From a virus (taxonomy: Duplodnaviria > Heunggongvirae > Uroviricota > Caudoviricetes), in IMG/VR virus record IMGVR_UViG_2537561977_000011: a stretch of 21,738 nt of DNA. One strand, given 5' to 3'. Below are positions 9,927 to 10,700 of the stretch, one piece after another. The notes under the pieces are model-generated. The model saw nothing but the letters and a program-made list of their open reading frames with translations. It did no database searches and had not been told where the DNA came from. Numbering within the stretch: position 1 is the stretch's first letter; each line of letters starts with the position of its first letter. A program made the translations under genes and the position numbers.

Positions 9927-10346
9927 GCTTCATCTCCTCGTTAATGCGGACGGCCTCGGCTTCCAGTTCTGTAAACTGCGAAACAGCCACCCGTCGCAGC
10001 TCCAGTGGATTCAGTTTCCAGAACCAGGCAACATTGTAGAGTCGTTTCCGGAGGTGCTTCCCGTCTCCGACTGGGTAAAAAAACGCAGGATCTGCATGCT
10101 GGTCTTAAAAATATCCAGTTTTGCCATCTGCGCCGCCGATGAACGCGGGATCCCCGCCAGCAACGGGATATATTTCAGTGCCACCTGGCTGTCCAGTTTA
10201 ATACTGCCTTCACCGGAAATAATGAAAGGAAAACCCAGCGCCTCGATTTCGTCATACGTGGGCTCGCGCAACTCCAGCACATGCAGCATTTCGTTATGCG
10301 CTGTCACCGGTTTTTTTAAAACTATTTCTGTAACGTTCATTGCCAT
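9919..10346 (-). CDS. tail assembly chaperone GT-like fusion produced by programmed -1 frameshift at the slippery heptamer T-TTT-TTT (10083..10077)
   Basis: The -1 frame is open for 58 codons from the slippery site (YPVGDGKHLRKRLYNVAWFWKLNPLELRRVAVSQFTELEAEAVRINEEMKHG) and stops at TGA 9921..9919, overlapping the tape-measure ATG. This is the conserved arrangement of tail chaperone genes. Confidence 0.6.
10011..10346 (-). CDS. tail assembly chaperone (G-like, zero-frame product)
   Basis: 111-aa ORF from ATG 10346 (GAGGGAGGG 8 nt upstream) between tube and tape measure; contains a T7 slippery run 29 codons before its stop. The ORF-track start at 10445 is rejected. Confidence 0.7.
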   Translation of the reverse strand: MAMNVTEIVLKKPVTAHNEMLHVLELREPTYDEIEALGFPFIISGEGSIKLDSQVALKYIPLLAGIPRSSAAQMAKLDIFKTSMQILRFFTQSETGSTSGNDSTMLPGSGN

Positions 10347-10700
10347 TACTGATACCCTCCCTCTTCGCCTGGAATTCAAGATCTGCCGTGCCTTCTTCGG
10401 CATTATGATTAGCCTCTCCGTGCAGCCATGCCGCCGAAAGCACATACACCATGCCGTTTGCCAGCTCAGCGGTAATCGTCATCTGGTCTGAGGTGGTAAT
10501 TTTGTCGACCGGAAAGTTTTTGGGCACTTTAAACGTGCCCTTAACGTAAGGTGACCGCCAGGTCTCCTTGTAATCCACATCCCCTGCCATGCCGACGATG
10601 TCATCCCGGACATTGGTGTTCATCGGCACTTCAATGCCACCTGTCAGCGATAACTGCTGACCATCCACTTTAAAAAACAGGTTCCGGCGATCTTTGCCAT
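10294..10700 (-). CDS. tail tube protein; reading frame inconsistent with its likely ATG start (apparent 1-nt indel in an A6/T6 run at 10672..10677), 3' end uncertain
   Basis: ATG 10700..10698 with AGGAG upstream overlaps the sheath stop (TAATG), but that frame stops after 18 codons; the long ORF (10294..10770 in the track) is in another frame and would otherwise overlap the sheath gene by 70 nt. Position between sheath and chaperone identifies it as the tube gene. Confidence 0.6.

What the first reader, a model, noticed from the sequence alone, without database searches (positions are those of the whole stretch)
10294..10700. Tail tube gene: likely start codon, gene body and likely stop are in different frames
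The ATG with a good ribosome-binding site overlapping the sheath stop (TAATG) opens a frame that stops after 18 codons, while the long ORF is in another frame, consistent with a 1-nt loss in the A6/T6 run at 10672..10677. At the 3' end a TAA overlapping the chaperone ATG (TAATG at 10348..10344, the same junction architecture as sheath/tube) is in a third frame, whereas the body frame continues 52 nt into the chaperone gene. The gene therefore carries one or two indels, or has an unusual overlapping organisation.
Basis: partly seen in the sequence, partly recalled or inferred. Interest (0 to 1): 0.45.

Follow-up and report, generated by a model that had tools for sequence, protein, structure and literature searches.

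The report
Frameshifted tail tube gene, defective prophage
The phage tail tube gene in this E. coli contig lacks two single bases compared with its intact relatives: one loss is a real inherited mutation and the other is probably a sequencing miscall in a run of T's, so this is an ordinary broken gene in a decaying prophage.

Summary
The window is the whole contig ADUP01000036.1 of E. coli LT-68. It carries a phiP27-like prophage with a Mu-type tail module. In relatives the tube gene is a 357-nt ORF (118 aa) that runs from the sheath TAATG junction to the chaperone TAATG junction.

The window lacks two single bases:
- **5' loss:** T7 is T6 at 10672..10677. The ATG frame then stops after 18 codons.
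- **3' loss:** one C is missing between 10370 and 10369 (CCACGG becomes CCAGG). The conserved C-terminal HGEEGGYQ is replaced by 25 unrelated residues, and the stop moves to 10294, inside the chaperone gene.

The 3' loss is real. Five independent contigs share it and encode a 135-aa product that starts at the proper ATG.

The 5' loss occurs only in LT-68's own data. A sister assembly is identical over 10.7 kb except at three positions, each an A/T run of at least 7 that is one base shorter in the window. That pattern points to homopolymer under-calling, although a private slippage mutation is not excluded.

Nothing supports programmed recoding or a native overlapping organisation. The prophage is defective in any case (IS insertions, broken capsid and terminase genes). 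Interest is low.

The parts
10700..12196 (-). Tail sheath gene (498 aa). Its TAA stop (10702..10700) overlaps the tube ATG in a TAATG junction.
   Evidence: ORF list. Pfam Phage_sheath_1, sheath domII and 1C. The exact protein is on at least 1000 contigs.
10709..10714 (-). Shine-Dalgarno GAGGAG, 8 nt upstream of the authentic tube start codon.
   Evidence: Read directly from the sequence.
10644..10700 (-). Authentic tube start (ATG 10700..10698) plus the 18-codon reading MAKIAGTCFLKWMVSSYR and the TGA stop created by the 5' frameshift.
   Evidence: Translation. Relatives start their 118-aa tube CDS at this ATG.
10672..10677 (-). T6 run (T7 in relatives): the 5' one-base loss. It is private to LT-68 data and is probably a homopolymer under-call, or else a recent slippage mutation.
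   Evidence: Alignments A1 and A2. Sister contig L011 has T7. The T6-dependent 124-aa ORF occurs only in LT-68's GenBank contig and in the Logan assembly of SRR040460.
10294..10668 (-). Tube gene body as annotated in GenBank (EFZ58378.1, 124 aa, GTG start with no Shine-Dalgarno). It is the Tail_tube domain followed by the frameshifted C-terminal tail.
   Evidence: Pfam PF10618 at 100.8 bits. Exact look-up. Candidate start codons listed.
10369..10370 (-). Site of the 3' one-base loss: CCACGG in relatives, CCAGG here (the C between 10370 and 10369 is missing). It is a real mutation shared by sister strains.
   Evidence: Alignments A1 and A2. L011 shares it. The resulting 135-aa protein P0167 is on 5 contigs, including Logan SRR13627092 and two NCBI TPA assemblies.
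10294..10368 (-). Frameshifted tail QAKREGISNGNERYRNSFKKTGDSA plus stop. It replaces the conserved HGEEGGYQ and overlaps the chaperone gene by 53 nt.
   Evidence: Translations. H111, G112, G115 and Q118 are at least 90% conserved in 36-38 homologues. The modelled last beta-strand spans residues 105-117.
10344..10348 (-). TAATG junction: the ancestral tube stop (TAA) overlapping the chaperone ATG.
   Evidence: Relatives end the tube CDS and start the chaperone CDS here.
10011..10346 (-). Tail assembly chaperone gene (111 aa), intact.
   Evidence: Pfam PF10109. PHROG 166. Corresponds to WP_001251341.1 in relatives.

Best explanation
This is the Mu-type tail tube gene of a phiP27-like prophage in E. 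coli LT-68. As recorded, it carries two separate one-base deletions relative to the intact 357-nt gene.

**The 3' deletion** (a C lost between 10370 and 10369) is a genuine mutation inherited by a small group of sister strains. It swaps the conserved last eight residues, which form half of the final beta-strand, for 25 unrelated residues. Translation then runs 53 nt into the chaperone gene.

**The 5' deletion** (T7 to T6 at 10672..10677) exists only in LT-68's own sequence data. It is most likely a homopolymer under-call of the kind flow-based sequencing produces. If it is real, it is a very recent slippage mutation.

Either way the gene is a pseudogene in a prophage that is already defective. 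There is no programmed recoding and no native overlapping gene organisation.

**Shown:** the two deletions, their distribution among assemblies, and the conservation of the intact form.
**Inferred:** the artefact status of the 5' deletion, and loss of function from the 3' deletion.
For: **Ancestral form**
- Relatives (FDAARGOS_944, ATCC 43886, phiP27) have a 357-nt tube CDS from TAATG to TAATG. The window differs from FDAARGOS_944 only by the two 1-nt gaps.
- Outgroups polarise both changes as derived in the window.
- The intact form dominates. In IMG/VR and GTDB hits, 28 of 29 tracts are T7 and all 26 complete genes encode 118 aa. The intact protein is on at least 1000 contigs.

**Source of the window**
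- The window is contig ADUP01000036.1 of E. coli LT-68.

**The 3' deletion is real**
- Sister contig DAEAOT010000099.1 (L011) shares it and encodes a 135-aa tube protein from the proper ATG.
- That protein is on 5 contigs, including a 2021-era Logan run and two TPA assemblies.

**The 5' deletion is private to LT-68 data**
- L011 is identical to the window over 10,724 nt except at three positions. Each is an A/T run of at least 7 that is one base shorter in the window (10672, 7967, 4940).
- In that same region there are 0 substitutions, and 0 of 14 six-mers and 0 of 33 five-mers differ.
- 454 consensus errors are known to be biased toward long A/T homopolymers and to cause artificial frameshifts (PMC3277595).
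- At 20129 the window reads CGGGGGCGAG where FDAARGOS_944 reads CGGGGGGCAG. I read this swap as a flow-sequencing carry-forward error; that reading is inference.

**Likely functional effect of the 3' deletion**
- The C-terminal residues H111, G112, G115 and Q118 are at least 90% conserved.
- The modelled last strand spans residues 105-117. The fold matches the phage Mu tube with TM 0.82.

**The prophage is defective anyway**
- An IS interrupts the prohead protease gene, the capsid and terminase genes are split, and IS1 sits at the fibre end.
Against: - The sequencing platform of SRR040460 could not be verified with these tools.
- A Logan re-assembly of that run reproduces T6. T6 is therefore the majority call in the reads, not a slip by one assembler.
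- T6 at this tract is real in at least one other lineage. Three phiP27-type datasets that differ from each other by 8-18 substitutions share it. It also appears in the complete genome of ETEC1746 and in one IMG/VR contig.
- The T8-to-T7 variant at 4940 is a natural allele found on 187 contigs.
- The changes this lineage shares with its sisters are themselves rich in indels. The argument from mutation spectrum is therefore weaker than it first looks.
Confidence: 0.68

Rival explanations
1. Both deletions are real. LT-68 itself carries T6, a private replication-slippage mutation in the hypermutable T7 tract, acquired after the 3' deletion had already damaged the gene. The tube gene is then a doubly frameshifted pseudogene in the living strain.
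For: - Two assemblies of LT-68 data agree on T6.
- The same T7-to-T6 loss is inherited in an unrelated phiP27-type allele across three diverged datasets.
- It also occurs in ETEC1746 and in one IMG/VR contig.
- This prophage lineage has other real frameshifts. The capsid T6-to-T5 loss is shared with SRR354113. The terminase carries a +1 also present in FDAARGOS_944.
Against: All three LT-68-private differences from the sister contig are one-base losses in A/T runs of at least 7, one of them intergenic, with no substitution in 10.7 kb. From general knowledge of E. coli mutation spectra, substitutions should greatly outnumber homopolymer indels even in mismatch-repair mutants. The two LT-68 assemblies rest on the same reads, so they are not independent.
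Confidence: 0.27
2. The T tract acts as a recoding or phase-variation site. The T6 allele is still expressed through -1 ribosomal frameshifting on U_UUU_UUA, or through transcriptional slippage, so tract length tunes tube expression.
For: - In the window's zero frame the tract forms a perfect X_XXY_YYZ heptamer (TG-T TTT TTA). A -1 slip enters the body frame exactly.
- A 6-bp hairpin (GUCAGC/GCUGAC) starts 9 nt downstream.
- T6 recurs in several lineages.
Against: - 28 of 29 sampled relatives, and at least 1000 contigs, have T7 and a plain in-frame gene. No selection maintains a frameshift arrangement.
- The downstream fold is not significant (z = -1.7), and the same sequence is present in the in-frame alleles.
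- T6 alleles are found in decayed contexts, carrying extra frameshifts or a PGAP 'frameshifted' pseudogene flag.
Confidence: 0.03
3. The window organisation is native: the tube protein starts at the internal GTG (10668) and ends at the 10294 stop, overlapping the chaperone gene.
For: GenBank annotates exactly this ORF (EFZ58378.1, 124 aa).
Against: - There is no Shine-Dalgarno sequence before the GTG.
- The ORF exists only in LT-68 data.
- Homologues uniformly start at the TAATG ATG and end at the chaperone TAATG, with conserved N-terminal MAKIAGTCFF and C-terminal HG.EG.YQ.
Confidence: 0.01

Closest known systems
Tail tube gene of Stx2e phage phiP27 (P27p45, NP_543097.1) and its E. coli/Shigella prophage orthologues (WP_001062338.1, WP_001062340.1)
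   Same: 94.7-99.7% nucleotide identity. Same sheath-tube-chaperone-tape measure order. Same TAATG junctions at both ends.
   Different: Those genes are intact (357 nt, 118 aa). The window copy lacks one T in the T7 run and one C near the 3' end.
Bacteriophage Mu tail tube protein (PDB 9khy, 9ki1, 9lj8)
   Same: Same fold. An AlphaFold model of a close homologue (P0002) matches it with TM 0.82 over 116 columns. Same length class (about 118 aa) and the same family context (Pfam PF10618, Mu Gp45/46/48-like baseplate genes).
   Different: Only 19% sequence identity. A sequence-only search of the PDB is not significant.
Homopolymer-associated frameshift errors in Roche 454 assemblies (Luo et al. 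2012, PMC3277595)
   Same: One-base losses confined to long A/T runs, producing artificial frameshifts in the consensus. This matches the three LT-68-private differences.
   Different: The platform of LT-68's run was not verified here. The 3' deletion is not in a homopolymer and is real.
Frameshifted pseudogenes in decaying prophages (here: capsid, terminase and tube of the same element; the PGAP 'frameshifted' tube gene in ETEC1746)
   Same: Single-base indels, often in short runs, in a prophage that also carries IS insertions.
   Different: Nothing distinctive. This is a typical example.

Membership tests
Mu-type phage tail tube protein (Pfam PF10618 Tail_tube / PHROG 185) | Sequence match above the family threshold | tested here: met
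   PF10618 at 100.8 bits against a cut-off of 23, on the body frame. PHROG 185 at E 4e-43 on the intact orthologue.
Mu-type phage tail tube protein (Pfam PF10618 Tail_tube / PHROG 185) | Gene lies between the sheath and tail-assembly-chaperone genes | tested here: met
   Sheath 10700..12196, chaperone 10011..10346, tape measure 7977..9926.
Mu-type phage tail tube protein (Pfam PF10618 Tail_tube / PHROG 185) | Tail-tube beta-sandwich fold | tested here: met
   A model of homologue P0002 (pLDDT 79) matches the Mu tube 9khy with TM 0.82. This was tested on a homologue, not on the window's broken product.
Mu-type phage tail tube protein (Pfam PF10618 Tail_tube / PHROG 185) | Single intact ORF of about 118 aa with conserved N- and C-termini | tested here: not met
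   The ATG frame stops after 18 codons. The C-terminal HGEEGGYQ is replaced. The window copy is a pseudogene of this family.
Programmed -1 ribosomal frameshift site | Slippery heptamer X_XXY_YYZ in the zero frame | tested here: met
   T_TTT_TTA in the ATG frame at 10678..10672.
Programmed -1 ribosomal frameshift site | The two-frame arrangement is conserved in homologues | tested here: not met
   28 of 29 tracts are T7 and in frame. The intact 118-aa protein is on at least 1000 contigs.
Programmed -1 ribosomal frameshift site | Downstream stimulatory RNA structure | tested here: inconclusive
   MFE -30.8 kcal/mol, z = -1.7, 8 of 200 shuffles as good.
Phase-variable homopolymer (contingency) locus | Tract-length polymorphism between very close relatives that switches the ORF on and off | tested here: inconclusive
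   T6 appears in LT-68, the phiP27-type trio, ETEC1746 and one IMG/VR contig, against T7 elsewhere. No T8 or reversion was seen, and T6 alleles sit in decayed prophages.
Phase-variable homopolymer (contingency) locus | Within-population heterogeneity of tract length | not testable with these tools
Flow-sequencing homopolymer under-call (assembly artefact), for the 5' deletion only | One-base loss in a long A/T homopolymer that is absent from independent assemblies of near-identical DNA | tested here: met
   L011 has T7 and differs from the window only at three A/T runs of at least 7 nt over 10.7 kb.
Flow-sequencing homopolymer under-call (assembly artefact), for the 5' deletion only | Data produced on a homopolymer-sensitive platform, with mixed run lengths in the reads | not testable with these tools
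   The platform of SRR040460 could not be looked up, and literature searches found no methods description.

The most novel reading that the evidence does not exclude
The T7 tract at codons 8-10 of phiP27-type tube genes is a genuinely hypermutable switch. T6 alleles arise repeatedly in nature and are partly rescued by -1 ribosomal slippage on U_UUU_UUA or by transcriptional slippage. On this reading, tract length modulates tail production in lysogen populations.
Probability: 0.03. Interest if true: 0.45.

Novelty: already known. Interest (0 to 1): 0.08.

Why it matters
It matters mainly as quality control. The GenBank entry EFZ58378.1 ('hypothetical protein', 124 aa, GTG start) is a mis-called fragment of a tail tube pseudogene. 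At least one of its two frameshifts should not be taken as biology without re-sequencing. The case also shows that two frameshifts in one gene can have different origins, one inherited mutation and one probable homopolymer miscall, and that near-identical sister assemblies can tell them apart. There are no consequences for phage biology beyond confirming that this prophage is decaying.

Tried and rejected
- **T7 probe:** a 43-nt T7 probe against complete E. coli genomes, meant to give a denominator for the T6 count, returned nothing, probably because the low-complexity filter masked the T7 run. I used the gapped pattern scans of IMG/VR and GTDB instead.
- **3'-deletion probe:** it found no complete E. 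coli genome. This agrees, where only FDAARGOS_944 exceeded 99% identity and it carries both bases.
- **Sequencing platform of LT-68:** literature searches for LT-68 or ADUP00000000 found only one paper that lists the strain (as ETEC) and gives no sequencing methods.
- **Terminase region in sisters:** looking up the terminase C-fragment, to test the 20129 and 20177 changes in sister strains, returned only 92%-identical mosaics. Those two sites remain unresolved.
- **PDB by sequence:** sequence and profile searches gave nothing significant. The fold search gave the Mu tube.
- **Convergent double frameshift:** I considered that the same pattern in the phiP27-type allele (T6 plus a separate 3' one-base loss) might be biologically meaningful. 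I set this aside because my search query carried both frameshift signatures, so it would pull out exactly such a rare allele from thousands of sequences (ascertainment).
- **Programmed frameshifting:** considered and rejected on lack of conservation.

Full report
**1. What is in the sequence**

The feature lies on the minus strand.
- The sheath ORF (10700..12196, 498 aa) ends with TAA at 10702..10700, overlapping an ATG at 10700..10698. A GAGGAG Shine-Dalgarno sequence sits 8 nt upstream.
- From that ATG the frame reads MAKIAGTCFLKWMVSSYR and stops.
- A different frame holds the long ORF 10294..10770, which matches Pfam Tail_tube PF10618 (E 5.6e-29).
- The chaperone (10011..10346, PF10109) starts at a second TAATG (10348..10344) whose TAA is in a third frame.
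- The body frame instead ends at 10294, which is 53 nt into the chaperone gene counting the stop codon.

**2. Comparison with relatives**

- The region matches many E. coli prophages and the Stx2e phage phiP27.
- In E. coli FDAARGOS_944, ATCC 43886 and phiP27, the tube gene is annotated as a 357-nt CDS. It starts at the sheath TAATG and ends at the chaperone TAATG.
- Alignment shows that the window lacks exactly two bases. One is a T of a T7 run (window T6 at 10672..10677). The other is the C of CCACGG (window CCAGG; the gap lies between 10370 and 10369).
- Apart from these two gaps, the window is identical to FDAARGOS_944 over 385 nt.
- The intact protein is MAKIAGTCFFKVDG...LEFHGEEGGYQ.

**3. 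Where the window comes from, and the state of the prophage**

- The GTG-start 124-aa version of the body ORF is an exact match to EFZ58378.1, 'hypothetical protein ECLT68_2683', of E. coli LT-68. It sits on a contig of 21,738 bp, so the window is the whole contig ADUP01000036.1.
- The nearest complete genome, FDAARGOS_944, is 99.8% identical over 90% of the window, but its IS elements are at different sites.
- The window's prophage is defective:
  - An IS4-family element (15596..16893) interrupts the prohead protease gene.
  - The major capsid gene is split into 267 + 141 aa.
  - The large terminase gene is split.
  - An IS1 transposase ORF (1137..1640) lies at the tail-fibre end.

**4. Polarity of the differences**

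I polarised every window-versus-FDAARGOS_944 difference with three outgroups (AST215, UMNF18, phiP27).
- The window lineage carries six derived one-base deletions, at about 4939, 7966, 10369, 10671, 14716 and 20177.
- It also carries one derived substitution and an 18-nt repeat expansion.
- FDAARGOS_944 carries five derived substitutions and no clear indel.

**5. The decisive comparison**

I looked up the window's lineage-specific 469-aa DNA circularization protein, which carries the repeat expansion. This found an independent assembly, GCA_018229165.1 contig DAEAOT010000099.1 (L011), plus three similar contigs.

- L011 is identical to window 1659..12379 except at three positions: T7 versus T6 at 10672, 7 versus 6 at 7967, and 8 versus 7 at 4940.
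- In this 10,724-nt region there are seven homopolymers of at least 7 nt. Three of them, all A/T, are one base shorter in the window.
- None of the 14 six-mers or 33 five-mers differs, and there is no substitution.
- L011 shares the CCAGG deletion. Its tube CDS starts at the proper ATG and encodes 135 aa, ending ...LEFQAKREGISNGNERYRNSFKKTGDSA.
- That 135-aa protein is on five contigs, including Logan SRR13627092 and two NCBI TPA assemblies.

The 3' deletion is therefore a real, inherited mutation. The T6-dependent ORF, in contrast, exists only in the LT-68 GenBank contig and in a Logan re-assembly of run SRR040460. That re-assembly is 100% identical to the window wherever they overlap.

**6. 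Is the 5' deletion an artefact or a mutation?**

Points favouring an artefact:
- All LT-68-private differences are one-base losses in long A/T runs, and one of them is intergenic.
- This is the known signature of 454-type consensus errors: biased toward A/T runs, more frequent with run length, and producing artificial frameshifts (PMC3277595).
- The GC/CG swap next to a G-run at 20129 also looks like a flow-sequencing error. That reading is inference.

Points against:
- I could not verify the sequencing platform.
- T6 is the majority call in the reads, because two assemblers agree on it.
- T7-to-T6 is clearly a natural mutation elsewhere. Three phiP27-type datasets differ from one another by 8-18 substitutions yet share T6, together with their own separate 3' one-base loss.
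- T6 also occurs in ETEC1746, where PGAP flags the gene as 'frameshifted' and the only difference from UMNF18 is that T. It occurs in one IMG/VR contig as well.
- The T8-to-T7 allele at 4940 is on 187 contigs, including S. sonnei.

My estimate is about 0.7 for artefact and about 0.3 for a real private slippage mutation.

**7. No recoding and no native overlap**

- In IMG/VR and GTDB representative genomes, 28 of 29 tracts are T7, and all 26 complete genes encode 118 aa.
- The intact protein is on at least 1000 contigs.
- In the window the T6 tract does form a perfect U_UUU_UUA heptamer in the zero frame, and a -1 slip would enter the body frame.
- However, the downstream fold is unremarkable (z = -1.7), and the arrangement is not conserved.
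- The internal GTG used by the GenBank annotation has no Shine-Dalgarno sequence.

**8. Consequence of the real 3' deletion (inferred)**

- H111, G112, G115 and Q118 are at least 90% conserved across 36-38 homologues.
- In an AlphaFold model of a close homologue (pLDDT 79), residues 105-117 form the last beta-strand.
- The model matches the phage Mu tail tube with TM 0.82.
- The frameshift replaces everything from residue 111 onward, so the final strand is half lost and a 25-residue unrelated tail is added. This probably damages tube assembly.
- It also abolishes termination at the TAATG junction, which may weaken translational coupling to the chaperone gene. The chaperone's own Shine-Dalgarno sequence (GGAGG) is intact.

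**9. Verdict**

This is an ordinary frameshifted tail tube pseudogene in a decaying phiP27-like prophage. One frameshift is real and one is probably technical. Novelty and interest are low.

Noticed in passing
window 10077..10083 (- strand T7) through about 9919: The chaperone gene carries what looks like the canonical tail-assembly-chaperone -1 frameshift site: CG-T_TTT_TTT-ACC in its zero frame. The -1 frame stays open for about 50 codons, fills the 84-nt 'gap', and ends at a TGA overlapping the tape-measure ATG (9926). This resembles P2 E/E+E' or lambda G/GT. This T7 run is unchanged in the window.
   Followed up: partly
window 15596..16893: An IS4-family element (transposase ORF 15619..16860, Pfam DDE_Tnp_1, like ISEc60) is inserted in the prohead protease gene, with a target duplication of about 12 bp. 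FDAARGOS_944 has copies of the same IS in the sheath and portal genes instead. Logan SRR354113 has the site empty.
   Followed up: partly
window about 14716 (T5 run); ORFs 14617..15420 and 14195..14620: The major capsid gene is split into 267 + 141 aa by a T6-to-T5 loss. An independent Logan contig (SRR354113) that lacks the IS shares this loss, so it is probably a real mutation.
   Followed up: partly
window 20129..20177; ORFs 20137..20559 and 18802..20106: The large terminase gene is broken. Both the window and FDAARGOS_944 carry +1 relative to outgroups at 20129, written differently (CGGGGGCGAG versus CGGGGGGCAG on the coding strand). The window also has T5-to-T4 at 20177. I could not check these sites in sister assemblies.
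   Followed up: partly
window 4940..4946 (T7; T8 in most relatives): A one-base loss at the very 3' end of the baseplate gpP-like gene gives 358 aa instead of 351 aa. The sister contig has T8. The exact 358-aa protein is on 187 contigs, including S. sonnei, so this tract varies naturally.
   Followed up: partly
window 7967..7972: A7-to-A6 in the intergenic spacer just downstream of the tape-measure gene. It is private to LT-68 data and has no coding consequence.
   Followed up: yes
window about 7330..7366: An in-frame 18-nt expansion (two extra copies of a 9-nt GAAGGTAAA-type repeat) near the 5' end of the DNA circularization gene gives 469 aa instead of 463 aa. Sister assemblies share it, which made it a useful lineage marker.
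   Followed up: partly
window 1137..1640 (+) and 888..1655: An IS1 transposase ORF (Pfam DDE_Tnp_IS1) lies at the tail-fibre end of the prophage. This stretch has no counterpart in FDAARGOS_944, and the fibre gene upstream of it appears truncated.
   Followed up: no
L016 1459..1890 (GCA_974498205.1); L017, L018: A phiP27-type allele of the tube gene carries T7-to-T6 plus its own G3-to-G2 loss 18 nt downstream of the window's 3' deletion. It ends at the same out-of-frame stop. Three datasets with diverged flanks share both losses, so they are inherited there. It was probably found only because my query carried the frameshifted C-terminus.
   Followed up: partly
window lineage as a whole: Even after setting aside the three LT-68-private homopolymer changes, the changes this lineage shares with its sisters are two frameshift deletions and one repeat expansion against a single substitution. 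That is unusually rich in indels for so little divergence. The sample is small and the pattern is unexplained.
   Followed up: no
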